A stretch of DNA of 64,000 bases from an uncultured Methanomassiliicoccales archaeon (GCA_964396265.1 CAYNEM010000006.1:60789-124788); one strand, 5' to 3'. Shown: positions 20,773 through 55,918, counted from the first letter of the stretch. The notes: a model not told the origin generated them from the sequence alone. Translations and numbers: made by a program.

Positions 20773-20784
20773 GGCCCAGATGGG

Positions 20785-21138: not shown

Positions 21139-21287
21139 CAGACGAGCCTCAGTGGAGGTTCCACCCTCCGCCGCGGGAAAGGAAGGAAGGGGAACAGGAC
21201 CCCCGGCGGAGGAACGTGCGCCAGGTCCAAGGCATGGGATTCTGCCATCGATGTATTTAAATGGCATTATGGCATAGTCTACCGCCG

Positions 21288-27002: not shown

Positions 27003-29774
27003 TCACGATCGCTTCGCATCCGGAGATGTCGACACGCTCCGGCTGCGGCCCCTGAGGACCGCGACGGTCACACCCGCCGCCAGGATCCCTCCGTCGACCA
27101 CGGCGCCGACGCCAAGCAAGGGCGGGATTGACAGCAACCCGGTGAAGTGCGACAGGATCCCGGTCGCAGCTTCCGCGAGGACGAAGGGGAGACTCGTGGT
27201 GGCAAATGCGACGATAGCGGAACTGCGCCCTCCCTCGTGCCCTTGCGCGCTCCGCCTCGACGACGATGCGCCCAAGGCGATGAGCACGGCGGCGAACACC
27301 GCGGCGACGAGGGGCTTCCAGTTGACATTCGCGGGCGCGAGCGGAATGACGACCTCTACCGCTACGCTCGCCGAGCTCACATTCCCGTCGTCGTCCGCCA
27401 CGACTAACCAGACGATGTAGAACCCGGGCCTGGAGAAAGCGTGCGCCTGCGCGGAGCTCGGCCCGCTCACCGGCGGCGTCCCGTCGCCGAAGTCGAACGC
27501 GTAGTCCACGATCGTCCCGTCGAGATCGCTCGAGCCGCTTCCATCGAAGGTGATCGAGACCTCGACTTCCACGGTGGTCACGCTCGCCGTAATCACCGCC
27601 GTCGGAGCCAGGCCCCACACCGTGACCGTGACCTGATCCGAATCGGTCAGTCCCTCCGTGTCCGCGGCGGTGAACTGCAGGACGTAGGTTCCCAGGACGG
27701 GCGCAAAGAAGTCCGCCGCGTTCGTCGTCCCGCCATTCAGGGTCACGCTCGCGGGCCCGGAGACTTGCGACCATGCGACGACGAGGGCGTCTCCGTCCGG
27801 GTCGGAAACGATGCCGTACACAAAGACCTGGGTGCCCTTGCGGGCCATGAAGCTCGACCCAGCATCGACCGATGGCCCCGCGTTGGAGACGGACACCGTC
27901 ACTTGGACGGAATCCGTGCCCTCGAAGTCCCCGTCATCAACGGTCAGCTCGAACACGTACGTCCCCGAGACCGATGGCGTGAAGTCGGCCGTCGCTGTGC
28001 CTGCGCCGTTCATGACCACGGGAGGCCCGGATATCTGAGACCAAACGTAGGCGAGTCCGTCTCCGTCCGGATCGGAGGAGGCCAAGCCGTCAAGGGGCAC
28101 CGCGGAGTACTTCGGAGCCGTGATGGGCGCTGTGGCAACCGCGACCGGCCGCGCGTTGAGGACCGTCACCACGATCGTGTCTGAGTCGGCGCCGCCAAAG
28201 CCGTCGTCCGCCCGAAGGAGGAACATGCACGTGCCGCTCCGTATCGCGGTGAAGGCCGGCATCGCGTCATTTGGGTCGGACAATGTGATTCCAGTAGGTG
28301 CCGTCCACGCGTACGTCAGAGCGTCGCCGTCAGGGTCAACCGACCCGGTGGCGTCGAGTGCGAGGAGGACGTTCTTCGCGGCGGTGGTCTGATCCGGACC
28401 CGCGTTCGCAACCGGGTTCCGGTTGAGCGGGGTTACTGCGACGGAGGTCTCCCCGATTCCTCCGAAGCCGTCGTCCACGGTGAGGTTGAACACATACGTT
28501 CCAAGCTCGGTCGGGATGAAGGATGCCGTGGCGGTATTGGCGCCCGTCAGGGTCACCTCGGGACCGCTGACCTTGCTCCAGGAAAACGTCAACGAGTCTC
28601 CGTCGGGGTCACCGCTGCCCGTGCCGTCCAATACGACGATCTGTCCGCGGAAGATCGGGGGGGCCGTGGCGGTGGCGCTCGCCGTCGGCGGGCGGTTCTC
28701 AATCTGGATCGTGAGCCCGTCCGTATCATTCTGGTCGGCGCTGTCCCAAACGGTCAGGCTTACGATAAAGGCGCCACGAACGGCGTAGGCGTGCGTCGCG
28801 AGGGGGTTCGTGTTCATCTCTCCGTCGCCGAAATCCCAGAGGTGTGCAGTGAGGCCGACGTCGTCGGTCGATCCCGTGGCGTCGAAGAGGATCTGGGTTC
28901 CGATGTAGCCGCTCATCGGGGTGGCCGCGGCCAAGGCCGTGGGGGGGTTGTCGATCAGGTTCAGCGAACCGCCAAAGACCACCCCGGCCGGATTGCAGTT
29001 GTACGGTCCGTCGCCGCAGCCGAAGAAGCCATTCGCGGCACGGATGGTGATGACGTTTGTGCCCGGGAGAAGGTACGGCAGAATGTCGAAGGTGGCCAGC
29101 GAATCGTGCGCTGGACCGGCAAGGGACTCATCCGTCACGCTGCCAGTTGTTCCCACGAACATGCCGTTGACGCGCACCTCAGCGAAGTCATCCACGGCTA
29201 CCGATGTTGTTCCTCCCGTAAACACCCCGGGGAAGTCGAACACTTTCGAGAAGAAGAATTCCGCGGGGAACGCTGGGGACGTTGTACCATCGATCGCAGG
29301 AGCCCAAATCCACGTCGCGCCTGGAATACTCGACAAGTCGGCCGTCCATCCGTCATAAGGGTAATCATACAACGTGGCCCCCGGAGGGCAATTCGACGGC
29401 GCGAAGTCGTTTAGGCAAATATTCTGCGCGAGGCCCAGGAAGGTCCCCGCGGAATCGGAGACTGACCAGGTGGTGTCCGAGACGAACGGAATCGTTCCCG
29501 TTGGGGCGTCCTCTTCGTCGTCGTTCAGAACGCCGGTGTTCGCGGCCACGAACAGGTCCGGGCCTGTATCGGGGATTGGCAGCGCGCTCAGGGGGTGGGG
29601 TTGGAGGAGACCTGCGGAGGGCGCCTCGTCCAGACGAGGGCTTGCGATCGACGAGCCCCCATCGTCCGCCGAACTCGCGAGGAGTTGGGACGACGGGGGG
29701 AGGACCAACACCGCCAACACCGCCAAGGCGACGACCGCTGCGGCTCGCAACCCCTCGCCCTCCCTCCGGTACAT
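27003..29774 (-). CDS. cell-surface protein with multiple PKD domains and C-terminal TM anchor
   Basis: Signal peptide. At least five PKD-like units (e.g. GTQILFDATGSTDDVGLTAHLWDFGDGE..; FDGSGSSDLDGTIVDYAFDFGDGT..). C-terminal hydrophobic helix plus basic tail. Confidence 0.8.
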   Translation of the reverse strand: MYRREGEGLRAAAVVALAVLAVLVLPPSSQLLASSADDGGSSIASPRLDEAPSAGLLQPHPLSALPIPDTGPDLFVAANTGVLNDDEEDAPTGTIPFVSDTTWSVSDSAGTFLGLAQNICLNDFAPSNCPPGATLYDYPYDGWTADLSSIPGATWIWAPAIDGTTSPAFPAEFFFSKVFDFPGVFTGGTTSVAVDDFAEVRVNGMFVGTTGSVTDESLAGPAHDSLATFDILPYLLPGTNVITIRAANGFFGCGDGPYNCNPAGVVFGGSLNLIDNPPTALAAATPMSGYIGTQILFDATGSTDDVGLTAHLWDFGDGEMNTNPLATHAYAVRGAFIVSLTVWDSADQNDTDGLTIQIENRPPTASATATAPPIFRGQIVVLDGTGSGDPDGDSLTFSWSKVSGPEVTLTGANTATASFIPTELGTYVFNLTVDDGFGGIGETSVAVTPLNRNPVANAGPDQTTAAKNVLLALDATGSVDPDGDALTYAWTAPTGITLSDPNDAMPAFTAIRSGTCMFLLRADDGFGGADSDTIVVTVLNARPVAVATAPITAPKYSAVPLDGLASSDPDGDGLAYVWSQISGPPVVMNGAGTATADFTPSVSGTYVFELTVDDGDFEGTDSVQVTVSVSNAGPSVDAGSSFMARKGTQVFVYGIVSDPDGDALVVAWSQVSGPASVTLNGGTTNAADFFAPVLGTYVLQFTAADTEGLTDSDQVTVTVWGLAPTAVITASVTTVEVEVSITFDGSGSSDLDGTIVDYAFDFGDGTPPVSGPSSAQAHAFSRPGFYIVWLVVADDDGNVSSASVAVEVVIPLAPANVNWKPLVAAVFAAVLIALGASSSRRSAQGHEGGRSSAIVAFATTSLPFVLAEAATGILSHFTGLLSIPPLLGVGAVVDGGILAAGVTVAVLRGRSRSVSTSPDAKRS

Positions 29775-29807
29775 GTGCGTTCGCCCCCAGCTAAGGAACG
29801 CCGCCGC

Positions 29808-32210
29808 TCACGGGATGAAGTTCTGCGTCTCCGGCAGCGGCAGCACGATCGGGACCTCGAAGAGGTTCGTCGGCGTCGGGTGGATCACGACGAGGCCGTC
29901 GCTCGCGAGGAACTGCGCGGCCTGTTCCTGCGCGCCCCGTGAGATGGCGGCGAAGTACGCGTCGGTGATGACCCCCTGGATAGGGAACGGGTGGGGGTTC
30001 TTCCGCGCGGCCGTCGTGCAGGGGTTGGCGGCGCACGCGAGGTCGTGGCGGTAGTACGTCGTGTACGCCTCGAGGCCTCCGGCCCGGATCACGGCGCTGG
30101 CGCTGGGATTCGGCTGGGTCTGGTCTCCCTTTGCCATCTGGATGAGAACGCCTCGAACGCGCACGTCGTCCTCGTCGCATTCGTCATCATCGTCGTCGTC
30201 ATCATCGTCGTCGTCATCCTCGCAGCTCTGGAGGACCGTCCGAAGGTGTTTCGCGTAAGCGATCGGTTCCCCGGATTGCATCGCCCACTCGCTCCACTCC
30301 ATGTACTCTTGGATCGCGATCGCTCCGGCCACGGTGTTGACGAGCGGCGGCTGGTCTCGGAGCGGGATGTTCTCGTTGAAGACGATGCCACCCACGTTGA
30401 TCAGGGAGGGAATCCGGCTCGCGAGCGTCCTCCCGACGATGTCCCGCTGGTTCCCTAGGCGCTGGAGATGAATCTGCGGGCCGCCCATCGCATTCAGGAC
30501 GCTGGCCCGGATGGCGGGCTCGATCGCAACGAGTGGGCCGCCGAAATTGGTGCCTAACGACCACCCGAGGAAGTACATCCGGTCGGCATCCAGGTCCGGG
30601 GCGCCGTCGCCGTCCACGTCGATGCCCAGCTGGACGGCGCGGACGAGGACCAAGTGGTCAATGGCCGTCTGCTTCATGGCGTGCGCACGGCTGAGCAGTT
30701 CGTACGGTTTGAGCGCGAGCCCGCCCTCCTGTGATCCGATGACCTGGTTGCCGTCGACGTCCCTGCTGCGTCCGCCCGCGAGGAAAGTCGTCGAGGAGCC
30801 GTCGACCAGCGTCACCCGATTCGTGCTGTTCGGACCGAGTCCTCGCCCCACCGGATTTATCACCATGGAGGCGATGCCATACTTGGCAAGGGTGGGCGCG
30901 AGCAGCGTCGGGAACACTTCCTTTTCCCGGTCGCCGCCGACCCCGAGCATCGCCACGGGCCAGCCGTCCTCCGGCTCCGGCCCCGAGGGCAGCAGGAGGT
31001 TGAAGTAGAGGTCCTGCATGCCGGTGACTGGCGGCACTCCGTCCTCCGTTCCGACGACATTGAAAGTCACGTCGGGCCTCAGGAAGTTCGGCGCTGAGAG
31101 GCGCCCGTAGGCGATCGATCCGACGGCCCCCGGGACGAAGGCGAATGCGTTGAAGTTGACGTTGACCGTCGTGAACGAGTCCGGGGAGACTCCGGTGTGC
31201 CGGATGGCGGCGATCGATCCGATTTCCGAGAAGGAGTACACGGTTCGCGCTCCCCCGGGTCCAAGCCCGAAGTCCGCGACGGGCGCCGGGAGCGAGCGCA
31301 CATAGTCGCGAATCCGCGACATAGCACCGGTAGTGGACTGCGTCGTGAACACGGTGGCCACCGCGACCTCTTTCTTCGAGACTCCAGCGTCACGCGCCGC
31401 ATCCAGGGCGTCTTGGATCGCCTCCCTGTAGTGACGGGTTCTGCGGTCCCCCGAATGGCGCTCGTCGTCATCGTCATCGTGGTCGGCCTTGCCTCTAAGG
31501 AATGCGGCGAATTCCGGACTCTTCCCCACAGGGTTGCCCGCGGGGTCGCGCACGCCGGTCGTAACAATCAGGGCGTAACGCGTCGCCTCCTCGAGCAGTG
31601 GATCCGCCTCGACGAACAGCGTGGAGGTCGCCGGGTCCCAGACGACTTGGTTAATTCCAATCCTCATCGCCCTTTCATTGTCGTCGTGACGTCCGCCCCG
31701 GTCCTGATCTCGCCCTCGATCGTCATCGTCGTCATTCAGTACGAGAAGAAATACGGTGTCCGAGCTCACGGAGGTCGGGTCGATGGCCCCGTTGAACGGG
31801 ATGGCGAGCCGCGGCAGCAGGTTGAACCCATCGAGCGTGTTCAGGATGTCGATGTCCTGGCAGTCGGAGGGACGCACCGCACAGTCAGGCTTTGGCAGAG
31901 AGATGCGCAGACCGGTGATTTGGTCGTGATCCCGGATAGTCCACAAGTCGCTGGGGAACGGCGACGTCTGCGTCGTCCCCAGGTCGAACCGCGGATATGT
32001 GCCCGCAGGCGGACTTCCGGGCGCGGCCACGACGCCCGCGAGCGCCGGTATCACCAATGCCGCCAAGATCCACCCGCCCCACCAAGCGCGACCGAGTGGA
32101 AATCCGTTCGAACCCCTTCCCGCATTCCTCCCTGCACTCCTCCACACCGAAGCCGTTTCGATCGAGTCCGACATATAATCGCCGAACTGCGAAGGATGGG
32201 GGCGATACAA
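29808..32210 (-). CDS. secreted alpha/beta-hydrolase-like protein with poly-Asp insertions
   Basis: Signal peptide (an alternative start at MSDS 32174 is possible). GWSLG nucleophile-elbow-like motif. Acidic tracts DDDDDD, ADHDDDDDERH and CEDDDDDDDDDDDDECDEDD, the last encoded by a (GAC/GAT)n microsatellite at about 30171-30230. Confidence 0.6.
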   Translation of the reverse strand: MYRPHPSQFGDYMSDSIETASVWRSAGRNAGRGSNGFPLGRAWWGGWILAALVIPALAGVVAAPGSPPAGTYPRFDLGTTQTSPFPSDLWTIRDHDQITGLRISLPKPDCAVRPSDCQDIDILNTLDGFNLLPRLAIPFNGAIDPTSVSSDTVFLLVLNDDDDDRGRDQDRGGRHDDNERAMRIGINQVVWDPATSTLFVEADPLLEEATRYALIVTTGVRDPAGNPVGKSPEFAAFLRGKADHDDDDDERHSGDRRTRHYREAIQDALDAARDAGVSKKEVAVATVFTTQSTTGAMSRIRDYVRSLPAPVADFGLGPGGARTVYSFSEIGSIAAIRHTGVSPDSFTTVNVNFNAFAFVPGAVGSIAYGRLSAPNFLRPDVTFNVVGTEDGVPPVTGMQDLYFNLLLPSGPEPEDGWPVAMLGVGGDREKEVFPTLLAPTLAKYGIASMVINPVGRGLGPNSTNRVTLVDGSSTTFLAGGRSRDVDGNQVIGSQEGGLALKPYELLSRAHAMKQTAIDHLVLVRAVQLGIDVDGDGAPDLDADRMYFLGWSLGTNFGGPLVAIEPAIRASVLNAMGGPQIHLQRLGNQRDIVGRTLASRIPSLINVGGIVFNENIPLRDQPPLVNTVAGAIAIQEYMEWSEWAMQSGEPIAYAKHLRTVLQSCEDDDDDDDDDDDDECDEDDVRVRGVLIQMAKGDQTQPNPSASAVIRAGGLEAYTTYYRHDLACAANPCTTAARKNPHPFPIQGVITDAYFAAISRGAQEQAAQFLASDGLVVIHPTPTNLFEVPIVLPLPETQNFIP

Positions 32211-32341
32211 GGGAAGATTGGAACGTGACCTGATAGATTATCAAGTCTCTTTGGTGCGTCAGCTTATACGTCTTGGGGGGGAGGCGCCTTCGGAGGCTAT
32301 GCCTCCCACATGGGTTGGCGATTCGATTGCGGCTCCAGGGG

Positions 32342-35300
32342 CTATCGCGGCGCCCCCCAATCGTCGGTTTCGTCGACGGGCTCGGGGTCGGTGGCACTGC
32401 CTCGATCGGCCTGGGATCCCGCATCGCCCGGGACGTCGCCGAGATTTGCGGTGTACCTTTTCGCGCGCCCTTTCCTCTCCACGCGTAGGACCCCCAGCGC
32501 TGCCATCCGACTGATGTGGTAGCTGACGGCGGGCTGGCTCACGCCCACATCCTTCGCGAGTTCCTTTTGTGTGAGTCCCGATGTCCCGCGGATCCTCTGG
32601 AGCAGGAGGAGTTCGATGTCCGTGAGCCTGGGCTGCATCTCCGCCACGCGATGCCCGTACGGAGCGTACCGCCGGAACCGGCCGTCTCTCCAAGACTTGA
32701 TTTCTCCTTCCTTTTCAAGGACCCAGAGGTGGTAGGTCAGCGTGCCCATCGCCATCTTGAGGTCCGCGCGGATTGCGGCGAAGTTCGCGGCAGGGTTTGC
32801 CGCCAGGTAGCCCACGACCATGCCGCGCTTCTCGTGGTCCAGGATGTCGCCGTGGGTGAGCCGCGCCCACAACACAGCGAACGGTACCCAGAACGACCGC
32901 CGCAGGTACTCGTACAGCCATGAGATGGAGACCGCGATACTTACGGTCACCGCGAGGACGATCCAGATGAGCGGGAAGGGAGCGGCGGGCGTCGCCACGA
33001 TGGTCACGAGGAACGCGCGTTCCACCGCCTGGTTGTTCAGTCGATCCCAAGCGCGGTGGACCACCACATGATCGCCCGCCGGGAGCGAAAAGCTGACTTC
33101 ATACGGAATCCAGGACCCGTTGTCCACTTGGTACTCGATGCGGTCGACTCCGCTCCCTGCATCGGAGGCGGACAAGGTGAACCGAGTGGCCGTCGTGAAG
33201 GGGCCTTGGTCGGGCGTGTATGTCGTGGCCGGCGGCGTATTGTCAAGCACGACGCGGAGCACGCCCGCCACGTTATTGCCTAGGAGGTCCGTCGCTCGGT
33301 ACTCCAGCGTCCTCGGTCCGTCAGCGCCGACGAGAGTCAACGGCGCCGCGTACGGAGTCCACGCGCCGTCCCCGTCGAGGCGGTATTCCGTCAGGGCGAC
33401 ACCAACAGGAGTTGCCCCGCCATCCGCCGCCGCGAGCGCAAGCGCAGTGGAGGAGTTCACGAACGTGTCCGCAGCGACGAACTTGGGCTCTCCAATCGCG
33501 AGGGTCGTCGACGGCGGTGTGTCGTCCACGCGGAGCCGTGCGGAACGCGCCACTTCCCGCGTCCCCGTGTTGTCCTCGCTGTACCACCCGAGAAGGTGCT
33601 CGCCCTCGCTAAGCAGCGAGAACGGGCCCACGTAGTCAATCCACAGCGGGGCGTTGTCGATCCTGTAGCGCGTGAACCTGATGCCTGTGCCGTTCCTGTC
33701 GAGGACCGAGAGGGAAAGGGGAGTGACCGATGTAACGTACGTCTCCGGAGCTGTGTGGTTGGGTTGCCCGATGAGGAGGGCGGTGATAGGTCCGAAGATC
33801 ACTTGGATCGTCGCGCACGCTTCGTTGTTCGACTCGTTGAGCTCGTCGATCCCGTCTCCCGAGTCCACGACCACGCAGATGTCATGTGCACCGGACGGCC
33901 ACGCTGTCCATGTCACCGAGGCGCGGCCGGTCCCGCCGAAAGGGCCTATCTGCGGGATTAGCTGGTCCGTCCCAATCGGGAACCCGCCGGTTGGGGGACC
34001 GTCGAAGAAGCGGACGCGGACCGCGGATGCGACGCCAACGCCTTCATTGTGCACGGTCGCTTCGATGATCAGGTCCTCTCCGGGGTTCACCGCGAGCGGT
34101 GGGACGAAGGCGATGTCCGCGGGGACGACGCTTAGGTCGGAAGGCCACACGAACTTCGCTACGAAGGCATCCTTCCAGTTGTTGACGTCTGCACTTGAGT
34201 CATCCAAATCCGTATCCCATGCGCCGAAGGTGGACGGGAAGTTCGACGACTGCGTTTCTCCGGTCACGTACGCATTGCCCGCGGAATCGAGGGCGATCGA
34301 CCTCGCGAAGTCGAGGTCACGCCCGCCCAGGTACGTGGAGTAGTCGAGAACGACGCCCCCTGGACCCAGCCTCGTCACGAAGCCGTCGCGTGCCCCCCGG
34401 TTCTGCGTGGAGTTTGCGTCGGGGGTGGGGGGGAAATCGGCTGAGTTCGTGTCCCCCGCCACGTAGGCGTTCCCCGCGCGGTCCACCGCAATCCCGTATC
34501 CGTAGTCACGCTTAGCGCCCCCGAGAAATGTGGCGTAGAGGAGGGCGGTCCCCGTGGGATCGACCTTCGCCACGAAGGCGTCGGTTACGCCGTTATGGGT
34601 GGTGTCGTTGGCCCCATTCGTAGTGGTGAAATTCGTGACGTCTTCCACCGTGGACCCCGTCACGTAGGCGTTTCCGGCGCCGTCCACGGCAATCCCCGAT
34701 CCTTCGTCGAGCCCACTGCCTCCGAGGAACGTGGCGTACACGAGGGAGGTGCCCGCGGGATTCACCATCGCCACGAACGCGTCCCCCGGTCCGCCACCGT
34801 AGGTCTCTTGGACTACACCGGCAGTGACAGGGAAGAATGATGCCGAATCCACCTGTCCCGTTACGTATGCGTTGCCGCCCGAGTCGACCGCGATCGAGAG
34901 GCCCGAGTCGTTCCCAGACCCGCCTAGATACGTTGCATAGTCCAGTGAGCCGCCAGTGACGTTGAGCTTCGCCACGAAGGCGTCCGACGCTCCGCCAAGG
35001 GTCGTGTCGTTCGCGCCAATTCTCCAGGGGAAGTCATCGGAAGATGTGTCTCCTGTAAGGAACACGCTCCCTCCGGGGGCCACCGCAACGGAGTTCCCTC
35101 CGTCTGCCCCTCTGCCCCCGAGATAGCTTGCATAGAGGAGGGCTGCGCCCGTTGCGTTCAGACTCGCCACGAACGCGTCCGACGGTCCGCCAAGGGCCGT
35201 GTCGTTCGCGTTAGGGGTGAAAGGGAAGTTGTCGGAAGATGTGTTTCCCGTGACATAGACAGCACCTAGGGTGTCAACGGCGATCGACCGCCCGCGGTCT

Positions 35301-36388: not shown

Positions 36389-36486
36389 TCGGCGTCCCCT
36401 TGATGTAGTAATTGGAAGGCCATCTTATAGGTCTGCCGAGGGCAAGTCGAAGCCTTGATATGGGGACACTATGATACGTTCTGTCA

Positions 36487-39156: not shown

Positions 39157-39429
39157 CTGCACACCTGCGCACCCGACCTCATTCCTCCAATTCAGCGGGC
39201 GACCGGGTCTCGCCTCGGCACTCGTCCTCACGCCCCGGTAGGACGGAGTCGTTGATTTGTACGGGATCGCTCGTGTGCGGAAGTAGTCCGTCACGCAGAC
39301 GCTCGGGCCAAGCAGGATTCTTTCGGGCGGCGATGCTGCTGCCGTTGTCGCACGGGGGCGCGGGGCTGGCGGCGATGATCTGATTCGGACTGTAGGTCCG
39401 TTCTCGCCCGTGATGACGGGCCAATCTTC

Positions 39430-39993: not shown

Positions 39994-40161
39994 GCGAGAG
40001 CGGACCTGTGCTTAGTTAGGGAGAATATTGGCGGCCACCCTCGGAGGGATCGCTATTCCCGGGTGGGACCTTCCAGACTCGATCCATGCGTCGCGACCGA
40101 GGCGAACGGTTAAACGCGCTCCATCAATGCCCCCGACTGTCCCAGGTGGGGAGGTGTCCAA

Positions 40162-41535: not shown

Positions 41536-41633
41536 TGCTTGTTGCGCGTCTCGAATGACACGGCATTCTGCCGGTCGCCGACCTGAAGGTGGTTTGGCGG
41601 TGAGCAGTAGCTCCCCCAAGGATATGAGAACGG

Positions 41634-42014: not shown

Positions 42015-42015
42015 G

Positions 42016-43287: not shown

Positions 43288-43318
43288 GGGCCGACCCGCC
43301 GCGCGATGGCCGTGCGGG

Positions 43319-49300: not shown

Positions 49301-50314
49301 GAAGTCTTTGTCCGCGCTCGCGACCTTCGTGCCATCGGGGGACCATGCGACGCTGAGGGGCTCGCTCGCGTGGCCTGACATCGTATGGAGCACGGCGCCA
49401 GTCCGGTCCCAGAGGCGGACGAGGCGGTCTCCCGCCACGGTCGCGAGCTTCGACCCGTCGGGGGACCATGCGACGTCGTTCACGCGGTCCGCGTGCGACG
49501 CGTTCGTGTCGACGGTCGCGCCGCCCGGGGCCACGTACGCCCCGCTCGTCTCGTTGTCCACGTCGAACAGCACGACGAACGAGGCGTTCTGATCGCGCAG
49601 ATAGGCGGGATATCCCACGTACCAGTTGTCGTCGTCGCGCGTGATGGACAGCGTCGTGAGGTCCCAGTCCGCCTTGTCGCCGCCGGGCGCGCCGGCGCTG
49701 TTGTCCCGCGGGTCCGTGGCCCACCGCTCGCGGTCCCCGAAGTCGTTCGTACCGTCAACACGGATCGTGTGCGTGACGTCGAAGGGACCCGCGCCCGTCC
49801 TCGTCGTGTTTGCGAAGTACGTCGTGTCCGCGAAGCCCGTGCGGAGGTACGTCGTGAGGGACCGTGGATCGTAGACGATCGGCCAGCCGAAGTACGTCGA
49901 GTTCGGGTCCGTCACCACCGCCTGCGTGCCCTGGAGGTCGAGGTGCCCGAAGTCCAGACCCTCGTCGACGACCGCGACGCGCACGCCGGAACCCCGGTAT
50001 CCTAGGGACCACGCATCGTCGAATCCGTGGTTCGTGACGACGTTCGAGAGCAACGGCTGAGGCCCGACGGGCCCTTCCAAGGGCTGCGGGTAGCGAGAGG
50101 AAGGGTATTCCGCCAGGGGATCCGCCTCCGCGACGGGCTTGGCGGCGGAATCGGGGGCGATCGGGACGTCGCCTCCGGACTGGGGGACATCGGTCGCCGG
50201 CGGCATCTCCGCTGCAGCGCGGGGGGCGATGGGATAGCCCGCGAGGATCGAAAGGGCCAGAACCGCCACGAGGGCGACGGCTGAGACCCTCTGGCGGGGG
50301 TACCTCCTCCCCAT
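43319..50314 (-). CDS. giant (2331 aa) cell-surface protein: S8 subtilase-like domain interrupted by WD40 propeller, many beta-rich domains, C-terminal TM anchor and SHOCT-like tail
   Basis: Signal peptide. Subtilase Asp box AWSLGYRGSGVRVAVVDEGLDFGHLDL. About 700 aa with WD40 repeats (WSPDGSKLATVAGDRLVRLWD..). His box SEHGTRIASAIVAQG. An atypical Ser region (IGSDVSAAVVAGAAALV). TM (LAVVGIFLGVLLGFVL). C-terminal LRTAYKEGRISKEAYEQNLRKM (SHOCT-like). Confidence 0.8.
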   Translation of the reverse strand: MGRRYPRQRVSAVALVAVLALSILAGYPIAPRAAAEMPPATDVPQSGGDVPIAPDSAAKPVAEADPLAEYPSSRYPQPLEGPVGPQPLLSNVVTNHGFDDAWSLGYRGSGVRVAVVDEGLDFGHLDLQGTQAVVTDPNSTYFGWPIVYDPRSLTTYLRTGFADTTYFANTTRTGAGPFDVTHTIRVDGTNDFGDRERWATDPRDNSAGAPGGDKADWDLTTLSITRDDDNWYVGYPAYLRDQNASFVVLFDVDNETSGAYVAPGGATVDTNASHADRVNDVAWSPDGSKLATVAGDRLVRLWDRTGAVLHTMSGHASEPLSVAWSPDGTKVASADKDFLRLWDAATGGLVRQIQYVPFGDVAISENGILAFSPNGTWIAASTFKFVHFFDVATGTKFGTLWAENTEVNAVAFRPGAPDQIAVALGTNNAVVYSLNGTNVQPTTPVVRATPLKTASSHSQPVVEVSWSPSGARLVTGARDDTAKLWDMTPPAPLLLATLPEAQSWVLAADWSPSGAQFVVATQGLSPSISPSFLVYDASGAFVRQTPQPGALYAVHWSVLGEVATGGGDLTAKSWTSGGAYIRTFVAHRPDYALLAHGFSRYEDRENKYVHGMEFGTWYAWNATSGAWEPSPLLGVGGTQAAFQFGEQLFNEFSIPRALLGDPSGVSATLFSMHETGSRAQDTVPSDQNVDFQNLDFTPGWVSLSAWVWREIEQYSIAGLTSASGVFHFGFHPAPTVQREFGALGLLVVDTANASEYDRVYFDMNDDKVFDPTDVFASRASPIAALDSYNATTGLPGQDGYPDVSAGMVYFIADGVNPVPYSARLLSRKAAEGLLMRIPGAGDLVALAGDFGVDAITGAKSEHGTRIASAIVAQGRLPTPLTGLADASRLITIMNGLSDVVESWTFAVEGYDATVGTTDDAHVVVSAFNFPTVHNDGWDVSSRTADYLSTTYSGGRAVFVASAGDYGFGYGTVASPASGPNVLAAGRAGDFTMQSLLTGGPEGPNPHARAPAIPGSRGPSAQGFVKPELLAADTATLAIPLHAAGDGSSAVTSAAMIGSDVSAAVVAGAAALVYEAFTAANNRTPTVSEVRSLLLSGADDAGHDVLTQGSGYLNVSRSVRLAAGTADAGLEVTPPMWHPGAYRGNTHAAFTRLLYAGGVSPLALTLRNHGTAAISTNLDAVAYRKIGQYVHANATRRDAYQPNGDIALWVNGTGVWKVDGTTFTGIRVSPPIAGLWANAELVKVTAYADLGRLVEHQGTQFKTNYSYALRAYDWTIEWSRWVGVDPFPAPAFFRDELNTVGETFHTSNVLEVRAAFPATSLHEGLVLSLEDTGTPVYIDGLAWTFVIEFFDRAPWAWVSLSQGTANVLGNSSQVITATMTVPPTAALGSYEGAILVRDTTNGVTTTIPVLANVGSRAPSLTFGGDLASTALYDNHRVFGGYDKTLASGTRLRNPHMGDWRFFFFEIPDQGLFAAPAGLRVIVRTAWQDAPSDVDTFAFNRASGDAATQGSATTYGPFPLRQVAKSEELDKPEFRTLTGGGEEVVAYDLSPGLNVIAVRAFALRGLEANATLTVGQAGWVSAPTSLDVVTRALVGRETFPFLSNMNFPALRASAVGPATTTAFADLEIPQDVQTWWNFPGWGEWMFRASFSYIFTVEKALILEVHIAGQSDVEDLDMAVFRDGNANGIIDPEEYLVIDCQPVAPGLCQGGSLWNYNADGDAEERVTWVAPADGQYIVKVLGFTVPGGIGHFDMDVAVTLDTGTGYQVPEAPRPAEIVNGTESGLAAYASVTLSVTWDFPNDTVDAPYGGAVLLGLPTAPGVVVIPVSVTLDRAAPSIVSFQVAALGGNLNRADNRTTDDRAPYLIVSLEDPDLGQLDRDSVQFLLDGVDVSSRTIVSILYTTRANRFALWEGTATYSPSAVLSEGTHTVDAWVGDRAGNLANATFTFVVDDTVPILTFSTPDLVYTTLDTHAVVGATEPFASYRVRGNWTQTDATGAFSETVALENGTNSVIVSSTDWFDQDGAGNRIPGNPTSHVISIVRDLVAPEIPRFTTEVFATGETQVFVTGLVRDALSGVEPADPRTLVVEINGNAATVGADGSFREVVTLGVEGTNTITAIVRDPAGNQVTATTSAVRDTSDPTMTFAPLPPARTESRIVRIAGTTEPGAFVTVNGINVAAPGGAFETNVTLGYGTNTVVVVARDAVGNVDEQRFTIVVVAPAGTSALLLPAGLAVVGIFLGVLLGFVLPRYGIRVPGLPTRKQKEPIEDVGTPEGENAEPTGAAEAPPEAMRDVDRVTRLRTAYKEGRISKEAYEQNLRKMRDAEKAEDTNEESL

Positions 50315-50337
50315 GACATCGCGCGATGCTGCCGCCG

Positions 50338-50432
50338 TTATTTATATTGATGCCCGGAGCGTCGGGATCGTGCCCTTATCACCGAGCGCTCTGATTATTA
50401 TCCAGTACAATGAATTAATATAGACGCCACCT
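50338..50432. promoter_or_regulatory. AT-rich divergent promoter region between the two giant peptidase genes (TATA-like AATATAAATA for the minus gene; TTAATATAG for the plus gene)
   Basis: A 222-bp intergenic region, markedly AT-rich. TATA-like boxes lie about 30 nt from the minus-gene ATG and about 115 nt upstream of the plus-gene ATG. The plus gene has the SD-like GGAGTGGGG. Confidence 0.5.
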
Positions 50433-50536
50433 TCGAAAGGGAGGGACAAGGTGCGGGTCTGGGGAACTTTGAAATACCCCGGCCCTCTTAGCCGAGATTC
50501 GGGACAGGGTTTCGGGCTAGCCAGGGGAGTGGGGTC

Positions 50537-53500
50537 ATGCGTTTCGTCCGCTTTGCCGGTGTCGTCGCAATTGCAATCGCTTTCGTCGTGATCACGTCGC
50601 CGATCCGGGCAGGACCGGTCGCGGACGCGATGGGCTCGGGGGGCCCGGTCGTGGTCGTCGATTCGTACCGGATGGACCCGGGAGCACTGGTCGCTTCCGG
50701 GGCGAAGATCCTCGTCGACTACGATAACGGGTACCTCCTCATGCGCCTCCCACGGGCGAGCGCGAGCTTCTTGAGCGCCCTTCCGGGGGTCGACCCGCTC
50801 GAGGGGCGGACGCAGATCGACCTCTTCTTCTCCGGAATCGACTTCGACACCGCCGTCGCCGAGCCCGCGTTCACAGGGGGCATGGACGCCCCGACGGACG
50901 GGGCGTACCTCCTGCAGTTCCTCGGTCCCATCCGGAGCGAGTGGCTCGCGGACCTCGAACGGCAGGGCTTGGTGTTCGACCAGTACCTCGCGAACTATGC
51001 CTTCGTCGTCCGGGGCACGCCCGCGGCAATCGGGGCCGCGAAAGCCTCGCCCTTCGTCTCGTGGGTCGGCCCGTACCGTGCCGGGTACAAGATGTCGGCG
51101 GACCTCCTCGAGCACGAGGGCCTCGTCGACCTGTTCGTCGTCGGCTTTGGCGGCGTCGATGCGATGGTCCTCGCCCAGCACGTCGGGGCGACGGGCGCGG
51201 GCGTCGAGTCCATGTGGCCGTCCCCGGCCACCGTCCTCGCCCGGGCCCCCGCGTCCCTCCTGCTCGACCTCGCGAAGCTCCCGGACGTCCTCTACATCGA
51301 GGAGCGTTTCCCGTTCGTCACGATGGACCGGATCGCGGGTCAGATCCACAAGTACCACCCCGCGTGGGACACGAGCCGCAGCGGTCTCACGTCGAAACTC
51401 ACGGGCCGCTCCCCGGGCCCGGACAATACCATGTACAATTCGGACGATTACTTCGAGGGCGCGGGCATCCTCGACACCGGCTTCGACGAGGGGGACCCGA
51501 ACGACGGCACCCCCGACTTCTTTGACAGCCCGAACGGGGACCGCGTCACCCGCCTCTTCCGACACACGGGGCCCACTTTGGACGGCAGGTGCGGGTCCGC
51601 GCACGGGACCCACGTGGCGGGGATCATCGCCGCGGACGGGTACTCATGGGAGCGAGATCTGATCGAGGACTCCGGAGACACTTCGGTCTCCGTGACGGAC
51701 CAGGAGTGGCACAAGTCCGAAGCCGGCGTCGCGCCGGAGGCGAAGATCTCCCTGGACGGCACGCAGAACGGGAACGACGTCTTCTGCAGCGCGGGGCTCG
51801 CCGCGAGCCCCGCGTACTGGGACTGCCAGTACCTCAACGGCTACATCACGGTCACGCTCACCGCTGGCGTCAGCTCCGCGATCTGCGGGGCGCCATGGAT
51901 CGACGGCGTGAACGTCGTTACGCATAATTCCGCGATCGGTACGGGCGCGCGGGCTTGGTTCGCGCTCCACAGCAACAGCTGGGGCAGCGGCTCGCGGACG
52001 TACGGCGCCACCGCGGGCGGCGCAGATGGCCGGACCAACTCGGCCCCGGAGAGGCTCATCGTATTCGCCGCCGGGAACGACGGGCCCGACGCGAACTCGG
52101 TCAGCGGCGAGGCGCTCCTCAAGAACGGCCTCTCCGTCGCCGCCGGGCAGAACTTCCGCCCGGAGCAGTTCGAGTCGGACAACCCGAACCTCTTGGCGAG
52201 CTTCAGCAGCCGGGGCGGCCCCGGGGAGAGCAGCGGCCGGATCAAGCCGGATATCGTCGGCATCGGCACGTCCGTTGTCGCGCTCTTCGCGAGGGGCGAG
52301 ACCCTCTCCACGGGCTTCACGGCGGGTGCGGATCTCATCAACGAGGTCGACAAATATTGCAGCATCCCGAAGACCTACTGCTCGGGGGGCGACGCAATCG
52401 CGGACTACCGGTACCTCCAGGGCACGAGCATGGCGGCGCCCCACGTGACGGGCGGCGCCCTCCTCGTCCGCGAGTACCTCCGGGAGGTCGTGGCAGGTAA
52501 CAACCCCGCCTCCCCGTACTTCAACCCACCCTCGCAGCTCGTGAAGGCGATGCTGATCAACGGCGCGGTCCGCATGGACCAGAACCTGTACGCGTATCCC
52601 GGATACGACCAGGGGTGGGGGCGCATGGACCTCGAGCAGTCCCTGTTCCCGCCGGTCCCGCGGACGAACCAGATCGACATCGGGGAGTTCACGAGCACGG
52701 GCTCGTGGTCGCCCTCGAGCATGAACCTCAACGTCGTCGGGAACGACGTGCCCGTGAAGGTCACGCTCGTGTGGATTGACGCGACCGGGGACGCGCTGTC
52801 GCGGAACCTGAACCTCGTGGTGCGTTCCCCGAGCGGCGCCGAGTACCATGGGAACCGTTATCTGAACGGGTGGTCGAACCCCAGCGACGCCGCGTACGAT
52901 GGGATCAACAACGTGGAGCAGGTCGAGGTTCAGACCCCGGAAATCGGCACATGGACCGTCGAGGTCCGCGGGGTGACGATCCCGACCGCCGCCAAATTCG
53001 CGCTCGTGTTCTCCGCGAACATCGGCCCGCAGTCGACGTACAAGGTGGACCTGAGCACGACATATTCCACGACCGTGAGCCTCGCGCCTCTGGGGTCCGC
53101 CGAGATCCCGCTGACGACCCTGAACTACGGCACGGGCCCGGACCAGGTGCAGCTGTCGTCCGGGGCCCCGGCCGGCCTGACGGTCACCTTCTGGCCGAGC
53201 AACGCGATCAACCTCGGGAGCGCGCAGTCCGCGAACGTCCTCGCGAACTTCACCGCCAGCGTCGCAATCACCCCCGGGATCTACGAATTCGACCTCCGCG
53301 CGCGGAGCGCGAACGATCCGAGCCCGACGCCCGCATCGGACTTCATCGCGGTGCGCGTCGAGGTGCTCAGCACCCCGCTGCCGTTCCCCCTCCAAGTCAC
53401 GAACGGGCCTGTCGACGAACTCGACCCGTCCGTCCTCGTCTTCGAGGACCCGCCGGGCAGCCGCCACATCTTCATCGCATACCGCAAGACCGCGCAGGTC

Positions 53501-55918: not shown

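What the first reader, a model, noticed from the sequence alone, without database searches (positions are those of the whole stretch)
27003..55918. ~29-kb secretome block dominated by giant surface proteins
Within 29 kb there is a PKD protein (923 aa), a hydrolase (800 aa), the TM-wHTH propeller protein (1348 aa), a TolB/PKD protein (889 aa), and the S8 giants (2331 and 1793 aa). Only four small metabolic genes (a Nudix-like gene, an FAD oxidase, a DUF1801 gene and hmgA) interrupt the block.

This suggests an extracellular protein-degradation and adhesion specialisation, with a dedicated membrane regulator encoded alongside the hydrolases.
Basis: inference. Interest (0 to 1): 0.5.

Follow-up and report, generated by a model that had tools for sequence, protein, structure and literature searches.

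The report
Mosaic cluster of giant archaeal surface proteins
The 29-kb run of giant secreted-protein genes is real, but it is two unrelated modules placed side by side in an uncultured Thermoplasmata archaeon: an ancient protease/pseudo-protease gene pair, and a recently acquired island with its own membrane-bound regulator and an esterase-like hydrolase.

Summary
The gene inventory is correct: six secreted or membrane-anchored proteins of 800-2331 aa fill 84% of 27003-55918. The block is not one conserved system.

Module A (43319-55918) is a divergent pair. One gene encodes a secreted KP-43-like subtilase with an intact Asp-His-Ser triad. The other encodes a 2331-aa membrane-anchored subtilase homologue whose S8 domain is split by a 7-bladed WD40 propeller. 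Its nucleophile Ser and oxyanion Asn are replaced by Asp/Glu in 21/21 clade members. The pair sits beside hmgA in all five relatives examined, down to 38% identity, and has native codon usage.

Module B (26564-40124) is missing from a relative that is 92-96% identical in DNA, smaller in another, and has lower GC3. Its core is a cassette: PD40/PKD protein | transmembrane transcription regulator (SBBP-propeller ectodomain, one TM helix, two wHTH) -> alpha/beta-hydrolase. The cassette recurs in four genotypes and lies at another locus in some of them.

So a regulator does sit alongside a hydrolase, but that hydrolase is esterase-like, not one of the proteases. No PGF-CTERM signal was found, and "Nudix-like" is unverified. 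All functions are inferred. The components are variants of known kinds; interest is moderate.

The parts
26564..40124 (.). Strain-variable island of 13.56 kb carrying PKD923, the hydrolase, the regulator, the PD40/PKD protein and p187.
   Evidence: L100 is 92-96% identical in nucleotides on both sides, but has only 477 bp here (a 121-aa Asp_protease_2 ORF). L106 has a smaller version of the island. GC3 is 0.76-0.82, against a mean of 0.90 for the other genes (p = 4e-5). No terminal repeats were found.
27003..29774 (-). 923-aa PKD-repeat surface protein with a signal-like N-terminus and two C-terminal hydrophobic anchor segments. It lies 33 nt downstream of the hydrolase gene.
   Evidence: Pfam shows five K319L-PKD/PKD_4 repeats and the hydrophobic segments are. 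Residues 1-73 and 275-817 match the ends of the 2219-2351-aa DUF7948-SBBP-PKD giants that follow hydrolase paralogues in relatives.
29808..32210 (-). 800-aa secreted alpha/beta-hydrolase, esterase/lipase-like, with an N-terminal Ig-like/Lipase_bact_N region and three poly-Asp inserts.
   Evidence: AF2 gives pLDDT 85 and pTM 0.86. Foldseek matches alpha/beta-hydrolases and esterases at E about 1e-8. The GWSLG Ser551 is near-invariant and Asp696 and His740 are invariant in 47 homologues. There is a weak VolA/Pla-1 hit below the family cut-off. More than 2000 homologues exist, mostly bacterial at about 45% identity.
32342..36388 (-). 1348-aa type-I transmembrane transcription regulator. Order of parts: signal peptide, DUF7948, 6 SBBP repeats (propeller), CARDB, OmpL47-type barrels, a single TM helix (about 1137-1159, followed by RR), then HTH_HVO_0163_N and an ArsR/MarR-type wHTH.
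   Evidence: The TTG start aligns with the ATG start of the L087 orthologue. N-X-S/T sequons are enriched, 17 against 7.7 +/- 2.5 in shuffles.
36389..36498 (.). 110-bp divergent intergenic region between the regulator gene and the PD40/PKD gene. It contains a conserved TATA-like CCTATAAG box about 35 nt upstream of the regulator start.
   Evidence: It is 86.5% identical to L087, although the flanking proteins are only 61% and 74% identical.
36487..39156 (+). 889-aa secreted protein (885 aa from the ATG at 36499) with PD40 (TolB-like) repeats, two PKD domains, an acidic tract and a charged helical C-terminus. It has no membrane anchor.
   Evidence: Domains are. An orthologue (74-78% identical) is divergently paired with the regulator in the L087/L089/L102-104 type, and a shorter 328-aa PD40 protein takes that place in the L088/L110 type.
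29696..39225 (.). Three-gene cassette (hydrolase <- regulator | PD40/PKD) that is shared as a unit with genomes where it lies at a different locus.
   Evidence: blastn of the window against L087 gives 90% identity over 29696-32869 and 80% over 33813-39225. Homology stops about 110 bp beyond the hydrolase stop and 70 bp beyond the PD40/PKD stop.
39430..39993 (+).
   Evidence: It has no Pfam, NCBIfam or PDB match. It is 91% identical in L106, where it sits next to FAD457.
40162..41535 (+). 457-aa FAD-linked oxidase of the BBE/VAO type. It is cytoplasmic (pI 8.8, no signal).
   Evidence: Domains and properties are. It is present in L100 and L106 but absent in L096.
41634..42014 (-). DUF1801 protein of 126 aa.
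   Evidence: Pfam assignment is. It is syntenic with hmgA in L096, L099 and L100.
42016..43287 (-). HMG-CoA reductase, 423 aa.
   Evidence: Pfam E = 9e-117. The start is as called in four independent assemblies. It lies downstream of the giant in L096-L100.
43319..50314 (-). 2331-aa type-I membrane-anchored subtilase homologue (pseudo-protease). The Asp motif is at about residue 117. Between it and His862 lie a 7-bladed WD40 propeller and beta-domains. Asp replaces the oxyanion Asn (about 964) and the nucleophile Ser (about 1059). An Ig-like stalk (Big_13, three Glucodextran_B) follows, then a TM segment (2210-2249) and an 80-aa cytoplasmic tail.
   Evidence: Full-length orthologues span 95% to 36% identity, and every one that carries a source name is from Thermoplasmata or 'Methanobacteriota' archaea. 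Sequons are enriched, 24 against 12.6 +/- 3.2. GC3 is 0.92.
50315..50536 (.). Divergent intergenic region of the S8 pair, with TATA-like boxes facing each gene (ATATAAATAA upstream of the giant).
   Evidence: Alignment with L096 and L097.
50537..55918 (+). 1793-aa secreted subtilase related to KP-43, with an intact triad (DTG313, HGTH356, GTSMA629-633), a roughly 100-aa insert, and about 970 C-terminal residues with no Pfam match. The protein ends in a conserved GWNFVGFP...GxGYW domain and has no anchor.
   Evidence: Orthologues are divergently paired with the giant in L096, L097, L099 and L100, and lie nearby in L098. Sequons are depleted, 2 against 13.5 +/- 3.3.

Best explanation
The block is a mosaic of two independent modules that lie side by side because a flexible site next to an old gene pair has accumulated secreted-protein genes.

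Shown:
- Module A (43319-55918, with hmgA/DUF1801) is vertically inherited in this Thermoplasmata lineage.
- It is a divergently transcribed pair. One gene encodes a secreted, catalytically intact KP-43-like subtilase. The other encodes a membrane-anchored subtilase homologue with a WD40 propeller inserted in the S8 domain. In that homologue the Ser nucleophile and oxyanion Asn are replaced by conserved acidic residues.
- Module B (26564-40124) is a strain-variable, compositionally foreign island built up stepwise between the FAD oxidase and the 308-aa gene.
- Its core is a portable three-gene cassette.

Inferred, module B:
- The type-I transmembrane regulator senses an extracellular ligand with its 1100-aa SBBP-propeller ectodomain.
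- From the membrane, its two cytoplasmic wHTH domains control the 110-bp divergent promoter region and the co-directional hydrolase -> PKD-protein genes.
- The cell would then deploy an esterase/lipase-like enzyme and binding proteins when the cognate polymer or surface is present.

Inferred, module A:
- The anchored, glycosylated pseudo-protease acts as a cell-surface docking or regulatory partner for the unanchored active protease.

The regulator is not dedicated to the proteases.
For: Module A synteny:
- The order GCD14 <- S8(active) <-|-> S8(WD40 giant) -> ... hmgA is found in L100 (95% identity of the giant), L096 (62%), L097 (42%) and L098 (38%; complete genome CP070767.1). L099 (78%), whose contig ends inside the active S8 gene, shows the same order from that gene to DUF1801.
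- None of these loci has the regulator module nearby.
- In L097 and L098 the backbone continues to the serine recombinase, RFC, Tyw1, NOG1 and PdxS, as in the window.

Catalytic residues:
- In the giant's clade, 21/21 sequences have Asp or Glu at the nucleophile position and at the oxyanion position, and all keep the His.
- Three outgroup members keep the canonical SGN and GTS motifs.
- The active partner keeps DTG/HGT/GTS in all orthologues and aligns to KP-43 (1wmd, E = 5e-34).

Island:
- It is absent from L100, which has 477 bp in its place.
- L106 has FAD457 - p187 | hydrolase - short PKD at the same locus, with only 80 bp where the window has the 7.2-kb regulator + PD40/PKD pair.
- L096 has nothing between DUF1801 and the p308 homologue.
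- Island GC3 is 0.76-0.82, against 0.92 for the S8 giants and a window mean of 0.90.

Cassette:
- The regulator -> hydrolase adjacency occurs in four genotypes. The PD40 partner is seen in three of them; the L101 contig is too short to tell.
- The cassette is 80-90% identical in nucleotides to L087, with sharp ends. There it is flanked by different genes: LysRS, PRTase and ParE on one side, a Ras-like GTPase and STAND NTPases on the other.

Regulator:
- It has a signal peptide, a single TM helix followed by RR, and two wHTH domains.
- The C-terminal TM + 2 wHTH module occurs at the C-terminus of proteins in 1681 cluster representatives (E <= 1e-10), with varied ectodomains.
- Transmembrane transcription regulators are an established class in archaea (PMC10269533).

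Assembly: the same arrangement appears in independent assemblies of four sequencing runs.
Against: - No expression, binding or activity data exist. Regulation of the hydrolase by the transmembrane regulator rests only on conserved adjacency and the conserved intergenic region.
- Hydrolase paralogues also occur without the regulator (L092, L095, L106), so the hydrolase does not strictly need it.
- The physical partnership of the two S8 proteins is inferred from conserved divergent pairing alone. In L098 two genes (AttH and a 66-aa ORF) separate them.
- The strict conservation of acidic residues at the former nucleophile and oxyanion positions could mean a retained, altered catalytic or metal-binding function rather than a passive scaffold.
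- The direction of the indel events is inferred by parsimony from five to six relatives, not from a phylogeny.
- Signal peptides were judged from hydrophobicity and charge, not with a dedicated predictor.
Confidence: 0.72

Rival explanations
1. The whole 29 kb is one functional, co-regulated locus for extracellular protein degradation and adhesion, and the TM-wHTH protein is the dedicated regulator of the S8 proteases and the other surface proteins.
For: Large secreted-protein genes are strongly enriched in the block relative to the rest of the window. In related strains the same zone between DUF1801 and p308 repeatedly carries secreted-protein genes: a third S8 paralogue in L099/L106 and a hydrolase plus PKD protein in L106. 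This hints that the location may favour such genes.
Against: - The S8 pair exists without the regulator in L096, L097, L098, L099 and L100.
- The regulator cassette exists without the S8 pair nearby in L087/L089/L102-104 and L088/L105/L110.
- Four cytoplasmic genes, including hmgA, and 4 kb separate the two modules.
- The modules have different codon usage.
- Each S8 gene has its own TATA-like box, conserved in relatives that lack the regulator.
Confidence: 0.07
2. The 2331-aa protein is not a protease partner. It is the main cell-envelope (S-layer-like) glycoprotein of this wall-less lineage, and the neighbouring active subtilase matures or remodels it.
For: - It is single-copy and conserved across the lineage next to housekeeping genes.
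- Its type-I topology, with an Ig-like stalk, a C-terminal TM helix and a short tail, is what I recall of several archaeal surface-layer glycoproteins; I did not check this.
- N-glycosylation sequons are enriched about twofold, whereas the unanchored enzymes are depleted.
- It has native, highly biased codon usage (GC3 0.92).
Against: - There are no abundance or expression data.
- The retained His and Asp, and the strictly acidic replacements at two catalytic positions, argue for a specific site function rather than a purely structural role.
- I know of no S-layer protein built on an S8 + WD40 scaffold (from memory; not searched systematically).
Confidence: 0.2
3. The adjacency has no meaning at all. 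Genomes of this lineage are simply rich in giant secreted proteins, so runs like this arise by chance. The island is neutral strain-to-strain gene-content noise.
For: Other giant secreted-protein genes lie near the same backbone or the cassette in relatives: a NosD/PKD protein of more than 986 aa and a 1336-aa cellulase/CBM protein in L097, and a 1910-aa BNR/LTD/VWA protein in L087. No mobility genes or repeats flank the island.
Against: The two sub-modules are each conserved well beyond chance. At least four different states of the same intergenic site involve secreted-protein genes. A genome-wide density test could not be run.
Confidence: 0.25
4. The juxtaposition is an assembly chimera of a metagenome-assembled contig.
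For: The source is an uncultured MAG, and the island differs in composition from its flanks.
Against: Both junction regions are spanned with identical gene order in independent Logan assemblies. L001 (SRR12685303) and L086 (SRR12685296) run from the hydrolase or regulator through to the S8 giant. L085 (SRR6155509) runs from the S8 giant across the whole island to STAND762 and the pilin gene.
Confidence: 0.02

Closest known systems
Csp subtilisin-like proteins of Clostridioides difficile: active CspB with pseudoproteases CspA and CspC (PMC7200643, PMC12880746)
   Same: A subtilase-family pseudo-protease that has lost catalytic residues is encoded next to an active subtilase. In C. difficile the pseudo-proteases act as signal receptors and regulators of the active enzyme.
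   Different: Here the pseudo-protease is a 2331-aa archaeal type-I membrane protein with a WD40 propeller inserted in the S8 domain. Its replacements are conserved acidic residues at both the nucleophile and oxyanion positions. No interaction or signalling role has been shown. The only sequence relation is S8 homology (weak NCBIfam CspBA hit for the active partner).
KP-43 oxidatively stable alkaline subtilase of Bacillus (PDB 1wmd) and SubHal (5fax)
   Same: The 1793-aa protein aligns over the catalytic core and the C-terminal beta-barrel domain (residues 473-820 to 121-426, E = 5e-34) and keeps the Asp/His/Ser triad.
   Different: It is four times larger. It has a roughly 300-aa N-terminal region, a roughly 100-aa insert between His and Asn, and about 970 further C-terminal residues with no Pfam match.
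Transmembrane transcription regulators (TTRs): ToxR/CadC/TcpP in bacteria and ArnR/ArnR1 in Sulfolobus; surveyed in PMC10269533 and PMC6396743
   Same: It is a one-component regulator with a DNA-binding domain and a TM segment, expected to act on DNA from the membrane in response to an extracellular cue. It is single-pass, like about 56% of TTRs.
   Different: The topology is the reverse of ToxR/CadC: the ectodomain is N-terminal behind a signal peptide and the DNA-binding domains are C-terminal. The ectodomain is about 1100 aa and resembles a surface protein (DUF7948 + SBBP propeller + CARDB + OmpL47-type barrels). There are two tandem wHTH domains (HVO_0163-type plus ArsR/MarR-type). I found no characterised member of this sub-family.
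VolA/Pla-1 family phospholipases (TIGR03502) and Lipase_bact_N proteins
   Same: The hydrolase shares the N-terminal 'virulence factor lipase' region and is a secreted alpha/beta-hydrolase.
   Different: It scores far below the family cut-off (43 against 384 bits). Structural neighbours are generic esterases, CE7 acetyl-xylan esterases and S9 catalytic domains. The substrate is unknown.
Flexible genomic islands (strain-variable replacement hot spots) in prokaryotic populations
   Same: There is presence/absence and content polymorphism at one intergenic site among closely related strains. The cargo is surface-exposed proteins of deviant composition, and no integrase or att repeats are present.
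   Different: This is documented here from only four to five metagenomic genotypes of an uncultured archaeon. The comparison rests on general knowledge, not on a formal test.

Membership tests
Peptidase S8 (subtilase): 1793-aa protein | Pfam PF00082 match above the gathering score | tested here: met
   88.5 bits against a cut-off of 21.8, residues 310-695.
Peptidase S8 (subtilase): 1793-aa protein | Asp-His-Ser catalytic triad and oxyanion Asn in the canonical motifs | tested here: met
   DTG313, HGTH356, NSWG about 480 and GTSMA629 are present and conserved in three orthologues.
Peptidase S8 (subtilase): 1793-aa protein | Proteolytic activity | not testable with these tools
   This needs an enzyme assay.
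Peptidase S8 (subtilase): 2331-aa protein | Pfam PF00082 match above the gathering score | tested here: met
   48.7 bits against 21.8, residues 858-1109 matching profile positions 52-285. The Asp-motif segment lies at about 108-128, upstream of the WD40 insert.
Peptidase S8 (subtilase): 2331-aa protein | Catalytic Ser in the GTSxA motif | tested here: not met
   The motif reads GSDVSAA. Asp or Glu occupies this position in 21/21 clade members, while three outgroup members keep GTS. The protein is a homologue but not a canonical serine protease.
Peptidase S8 (subtilase): 2331-aa protein | Oxyanion-hole Asn | tested here: not met
   The motif is AGD or AGE in 21/21 clade members, against SGN in the outgroup.
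Transmembrane transcription regulator (TTR, as defined in PMC10269533) | A predicted DNA-binding domain and at least one TM region in the same polypeptide | tested here: met
   HTH_HVO_0163_N at 1186-1244, HTH_24/MarR/ArsR at 1255-1315, and a TM helix at about 1137-1159 with a positive-inside RR.
Transmembrane transcription regulator (TTR, as defined in PMC10269533) | Sequence-specific DNA binding and control of target genes | not testable with these tools
   There is only indirect support: conserved adjacency to the hydrolase in four genotypes and an 86.5%-conserved 110-bp divergent intergenic region.
Alpha/beta-hydrolase fold serine hydrolase: 800-aa protein | Alpha/beta-hydrolase fold | tested here: met
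   The AF2 model has pLDDT 85. Foldseek finds more than 800 PDB matches at E <= 1e-3, led by alpha/beta-hydrolases and esterases.
Alpha/beta-hydrolase fold serine hydrolase: 800-aa protein | Nucleophile elbow GxSxG plus conserved Asp and His | tested here: met
   G549-W-S551-L-G553 is at least 90% conserved, and D696 and H740 are invariant in 47 sequences. The triad assignment follows sequence order and was not checked in 3D.
VolA/Pla-1 phospholipase family (TIGR03502) | Score at or above the curated cut-off | tested here: not met
   43.4 bits against a cut-off of 383.9.
PGF-CTERM / archaeosortase substrates | C-terminal PGF motif followed by a TM helix and a short basic tail | tested here: not met
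   The C-termini of all six proteins were inspected and none has PGF. PKD923 and the 2331-aa protein have ordinary TM anchors, the latter with an 80-aa tail. No HMM for PGF-CTERM was run separately.
Conserved gene cluster (whole 27003-55918 block) | Linkage of the member genes maintained in relatives | tested here: not met
   Only two sub-modules are conserved, and they are unlinked in L087-L091, L096-L100 and L102-L110.
Integrative mobile element / classical genomic island | Flanking direct repeats (att), an integrase at the border, or a tRNA target | tested here: not met
   No terminal repeats were found at 26564 or 40124. The nearest recombinase (17788-19286) is syntenic in all relatives, including those without the island. 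tRNA-Ser is 18 kb away.
Integrative mobile element / classical genomic island | Presence/absence polymorphism and deviant composition | tested here: met
Nudix hydrolase: 187-aa protein | Match to the NUDIX profile / Nudix box | tested here: not met
   No Pfam or NCBIfam hit at E <= 0.01 and no PDB sequence match. By eye there is only a degenerate GEx7-like stretch.

The most novel reading that the evidence does not exclude
The conserved divergent pair is a previously undescribed archaeal cell-surface machine. A membrane-anchored subtilase homologue carries an inserted WD40 propeller and has a remodelled Asp-His-Asp(+Asp) site. It would work as a ligand- or metal-sensing receptor, or as an enzyme with a new catalytic chemistry, that tethers and controls the giant active subtilase. 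This would be an archaeal counterpart of the CspC/CspA-CspB system. The strictly acidic replacements in 21/21 sequences imply a selected site function, not decay.
Probability: 0.2. Interest if true: 0.65.

Novelty: new variant of a known kind. Interest (0 to 1): 0.4.

Why it matters
Uncultured, high-GC Thermoplasmata are common in soils and sediments and are thought to live on detrital polymers. Which of their giant surface proteins are core and which are strain-variable accessories is largely unknown.

This locus gives three results:
- It separates a core, lineage-wide protease/pseudo-protease pair from an accessory sensing-and-hydrolysis cassette.
- It gives a concrete, testable case of an archaeal one-component regulator that reads the outside world through a surface-protein-like propeller. 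About 1,700 cluster representatives share its C-terminal module.
- It documents a hot spot where secreted-protein genes are gained stepwise.

It also cautions against reading a run of secreted-protein genes as an operon-like system.

Tried and rejected
- hmgA as a synteny anchor in GTDB genomes. All 80 loci were too distant (75% identity or less) and showed no block genes nearby. This was uninformative rather than negative.
- First metagenome scan with the full hydrolase. It was swamped by its poly-Asp tract. It was repeated with residues 290-660 and gave 11 useful loci.
- PDB sequence searches for the hydrolase and p187 found nothing significant.
- Foldseek on the S8/WD40 model was dominated by WD40 propellers and said nothing about the active-site geometry.
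- Literature searches for the source genomes (CP070767 / GCA_020345725) and for HVO_0163 gave nothing functional. The Lutacidiplasmatales paper mentions S53, thermopsin and A4 peptidases and does not contain the word 'subtilisin' or 'subtilase', so the order-level taxonomy of the source was left open.
- A search for terminal repeats or att sites at the island borders found none.
- The idea that the nearby serine recombinase mobilises the island was considered and rejected. It is syntenic, and split in the same way, in relatives that lack the island.
- An Rfam scan found only tRNA-Ser.

Full report
**Source and gene calls.** The window is 66% G+C. Its cytoplasmic proteins are basic (pI 8.8-9.9), so the organism is not a salt-in halophile. 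Archaeal markers are present: type IV pilin N-terminal domain, RFC-like AAA, NOG1, Tyw1, GCD14 and HMG-CoA reductase. The closest hmgA among GTDB species representatives is 75% identical, in a Thermoplasmata MAG. Named orthologues of the largest protein all come from Thermoplasmata or 'Methanobacteriota' archaea. Identical proteins occur on contigs assembled independently from several sequencing runs and on a 141.8-kb NCBI contig, so the arrangement is not an assembly artefact. Because high G+C creates many spurious ORFs, I called genes by third-position GC.

**Checking the observation.**
- a 923-aa PKD-repeat protein;
- an 800-aa hydrolase;
- a 1348-aa protein with DUF7948, six SBBP repeats, CARDB, one TM helix and two helix-turn-helix domains;
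- an 889-aa PD40 + PKD protein;
- two Peptidase_S8 proteins of 2331 and 1793 aa;
- four small genes: a 187-aa unknown, an FAD/BBE oxidase, DUF1801 and HMG-CoA reductase.

All six large proteins start with a basic stretch followed by a hydrophobic signal-like segment. Three also have C-terminal membrane anchors: PKD923, the 1348-aa protein and the 2331-aa protein. None ends in a PGF-CTERM motif.

The six genes fill 84% of the interval. They make up 6 of 10 genes there, against 2 of 33 in the rest of the window (post hoc Fisher p = 8e-4). The flanks are housekeeping genes: purA/B, DNA ligase, PdxS, NOG1, Tyw1, RFC and SufS.

Corrections:
- hmgA is 423 aa, starting at 43287.
- 'Nudix-like' is unsupported.

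**The two S8 giants differ in kind.** The 1793-aa protein aligns to the KP-43 subtilase (1wmd, E = 5e-34) through the catalytic core and the following beta-barrel domain. It carries DTG, HGTH, NSWG and GTSMA motifs, which are conserved in three orthologues.

In the 2331-aa protein the S8 domain is split. The Asp motif (VAVVDEG) is at about residue 117. The His motif (HGT) is at 862. Between them lie a canonical 7-bladed WD40 propeller (TM-score 0.9 to solved propellers) and further beta domains.

The oxyanion Asn is Asp (SAGD), and the nucleophile motif reads GSDVSAA instead of GTSMAAP. In an alignment of the family, 21/21 members of the window's clade have Asp or Glu at both positions and all keep the His. 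Three more distant members keep SGN and GTS. This is therefore a conserved pseudo-subtilase or a re-purposed site, not random decay.

After the S8 region come Ig-like domains (Big_13, three Glucodextran_B), a TM segment at 2210-2249 and an 80-aa charged tail.

N-X-S/T sequons are enriched about twofold in the two TM-anchored ectodomain proteins (2331 aa: 24 against 12.6 +/- 3.2; 1348 aa: 17 against 7.7 +/- 2.5). They are depleted in the unanchored enzymes (1793 aa: 2 against 13.5 +/- 3.3; 800 aa: 1 against 3.7).

**Synteny of the S8 pair.** Full-length orthologues of the giant span 95% to 36% identity. Contexts were retrieved for five of them.
- L100 (95%), L096 (62%), L097 (42%) and L098 (38%; the complete 1.99-Mb genome CP070767.1) all show GCD14 <- active S8 <-|-> WD40-S8 giant -> (0-5 small genes) -> hmgA. 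L099 (78%), whose contig ends inside the active S8 gene, shows the same order from that gene to DUF1801.
- In the longer loci this continues to a serine recombinase, RFC, Tyw1, NOG1 and PdxS. That is the window's own order read right to left.
- In L098 an AttH gene and a 66-aa ORF separate the pair.
- The pair has native codon usage (GC3 0.92). Each gene has its own TATA-like box in an intergenic region that aligns with L096 and L097.
- None of these loci carries the regulator module.

**The regulator module is a separate, portable unit.** Homologues of the 1348-aa protein with the full architecture exist at 42-75% identity. On the contigs of relatives the same core recurs: PD40(/PKD) protein <- divergent -> regulator -> about 790-aa hydrolase (L087, L088, L089-L091, L102-L105, L110; a partial view in L101). 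That makes four distinct genotypes including the window. In those genomes the module is flanked by LysRS, a phosphoribosyltransferase and ParE on one side, and by a Ras-like GTPase and STAND NTPases on the other. It is not next to hmgA or the S8 genes.

At the DNA level the window matches L087 at 90% over 29696-32869 and at 80% over 33813-39225. Homology ends about 110 bp beyond the hydrolase stop and 70 bp beyond the PD40/PKD stop, so the three genes travel together.

Hydrolase paralogues (71-78% identical) that lack the regulator are always followed, after about 33 nt, by a protein of the same kind as the window's PKD923. In L092, L095 and L108 this is a DUF7948-SBBP-PKD giant of 2219-2351 aa; L107 shows only part of a protein of that kind. 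In L106 it is a short PKD protein. PKD923 matches the two ends of those giants. In every context examined, the hydrolase is thus next to a protein of this DUF7948-SBBP/PKD group.

**The island is strain-variable and was built stepwise.** L100 is 92-96% identical to the window in nucleotides over 41630-58118, 40125-41531 and 25940-26563. Between the FAD oxidase and the 308-aa gene, however, it has only 477 bp encoding a 121-aa retropepsin-like ORF. The window has 13.56 kb there (26564-40124).

L106 shares the same flanks (FAD457 94%, p187 91%, p308 91%, STAND762 85%). It carries only p187 | hydrolase (77%) -> short PKD. Just 80 bp lie where the window has the 7.2-kb regulator + PD40/PKD pair, and 0.93 kb where the window has the 3.1-kb PKD923 region.

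L096 has nothing between DUF1801 and the p308 homologue. L099 and L106 have an extra S8 paralogue after DUF1801.

The five island genes have GC3 of 0.76-0.82, against a mean of 0.90 for the other 26 genes (Mann-Whitney p = 4e-5). No terminal repeats were found. The nearby serine recombinase is syntenic even in relatives without the island. This looks like a replacement hot spot, not an integrative element.

**What the island proteins are.** The hydrolase model is confident (pLDDT 85, pTM 0.86). Its C-terminal half is an alpha/beta-hydrolase fold whose neighbours are esterases, CE7 acetyl-xylan esterases and S9 catalytic domains. A GWSLG nucleophile elbow (Ser551) is near-invariant and Asp696 and His740 are invariant across 47 homologues. 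The N-terminal half resembles the Lipase_bact_N / VolA-Pla-1 region but scores far below family cut-offs. The family has more than 2000 members, mostly bacterial at about 45% identity.

The regulator has:
- a signal peptide;
- an ectodomain of about 1100 aa (DUF7948, SBBP propeller, CARDB, OmpL47-type barrels);
- one TM helix (about 1137-1159) followed by Arg-Arg;
- two cytoplasmic winged-helix domains.

This fits the published definition of a transmembrane transcription regulator, a class found in most archaeal genomes (PMC10269533; the archaeal examples are ArnR/ArnR1, PMC6396743).

Its C-terminal TM + 2 wHTH module matches 4902 cluster representatives (1681 at E <= 1e-10). Nearly all of the 150 matches listed lie at or close to the C-terminus of proteins of about 110-1900 aa. 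Eight of these that I scanned carry NosD/beta-helix, Kelch, DUF11, SBBP + PKD or Ig-like ectodomains. I found no functional study of this sub-family.

The 110-bp region between the regulator and the PD40/PKD gene is 86.5% identical to L087, although the flanking proteins are 61% and 74% identical. It contains a TATA-like box at the expected distance from the regulator's start.

**Most likely mechanism (inference).**
- Module B is a one-component sensing unit. The ectodomain is homologous (45-49%) to the propeller of the giants that accompany hydrolase paralogues. It binds an extracellular ligand, plausibly the polymer or surface on which the hydrolase acts.
- The membrane-tethered wHTH domains then adjust transcription of the divergent promoter region and of the hydrolase -> PKD genes.
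- Module A is a core surface feature. The glycosylated, anchored pseudo-subtilase with its WD40 platform probably docks or regulates the unanchored active subtilase. The nearest precedent is CspC/CspA with CspB in C. difficile (PMC7200643, PMC12880746). An S-layer-like structural role is a serious alternative.
- The two modules are neighbours because secreted-protein genes have accreted at a flexible site next to the old pair, not because they work together.

Novelty lies in variants of known kinds:
- a lineage-wide WD40-inserted pseudo-subtilase paired with a giant active subtilase;
- a large, uncharacterised sub-family of type-I transmembrane regulators with surface-protein-like ectodomains.

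All functional statements are inferences from sequence, models and synteny.

Noticed in passing
window 17788-19286 (-); L096 24788-26297; L097 22726-24299; L098 19115-19987: A large serine recombinase is split into two adjacent ORFs: 271 aa (Resolvase + Recombinase) and 228 aa (Recombinase), overlapping by 4 nt. It sits at the same syntenic position, between the hmgA side and RFC, in relatives down to 38% identity of the giant. The same split is present in L096 and L097. That is unusual for a mobile-element gene and suggests a domesticated or programmed-frameshift recombinase.
   Followed up: partly
window 58319-59278 (-) and 59324-60145 (+), next to tRNA-Ser 58232-58315: Two divergently oriented Ras/Roc-family small GTPase genes are present in this archaeon. 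A paralogue (40% identical to the 273-aa one), together with STAND AAA16-TPR NTPases, flanks the regulator cassette in relatives (L087, L089).
   Followed up: partly
window 30160-30235, 31460-31490 and 31670-31740 (hydrolase); 38640-38820 (PD40/PKD protein): Both island proteins contain long poly-Asp/Glu tracts (for example EDDDDDDDDDDDDECDEDD). These could bind cations or mineral surfaces. They also spoiled the first metagenome scan.
   Followed up: no
L099 11289-13442 and L106 1-4884: Relatives at about 78% identity carry a third giant S8 gene (52-58% identical to the 1793-aa protease) between DUF1801 and the FAD oxidase. The same flexible zone therefore also gains protease paralogues.
   Followed up: partly
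window 43319-50314, residues about 964 and 1059, and orthologues P0241-P0263: Both catalytic positions lost from the subtilase (nucleophile Ser and oxyanion Asn) are replaced specifically by Asp or Glu in all 21 clade members, while His and Asp are retained. This points to a selected new site, either metal-binding or an altered chemistry, rather than simple inactivation. It remains unexplained.
   Followed up: partly
window 27003-55918 (sequon counts): N-X-S/T sequons are about twofold enriched in the TM-anchored 2331-aa and 1348-aa proteins. They are strongly depleted in the unanchored 1793-aa protease (2 observed against 13.5 expected) and in the hydrolase. This could reflect different glycosylation regimes for anchored and released proteins.
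   Followed up: no
window 29808-32210 compared with L087 and L106: The hydrolase is 92% identical to the copy in L087-type genomes, which lies at a different locus. It is only 77% identical to the copy at the same locus in L106. The adjacent regulator is only 61% identical to L087's, except for its cytoplasmic C-terminus (about 90% at DNA level). This mosaic pattern suggests recombination or gene conversion among paralogous cassettes.
   Followed up: partly
window 41634-42014 (-): DUF1801 has a low GC3 (0.81) and is only 82% identical to its L100 counterpart, while its neighbours are 93-97% identical. It may mark the true edge of the variable zone.
   Followed up: no
window 19833-21951: A small cluster of toxin-antitoxin-type genes (RHH/UPF0175 and PIN) lies between the recombinase and the pilin gene. 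It is absent from the corresponding position in L096.
   Followed up: no
window 22665-24953 (-): A 762-aa STAND-type regulator (N-terminal HTH, AAA_16, TPR) is conserved in synteny with the 308-aa gene and the pilin gene in L096 and L106. It is a second, cytoplasmic, candidate regulator bordering the variable zone.
   Followed up: no
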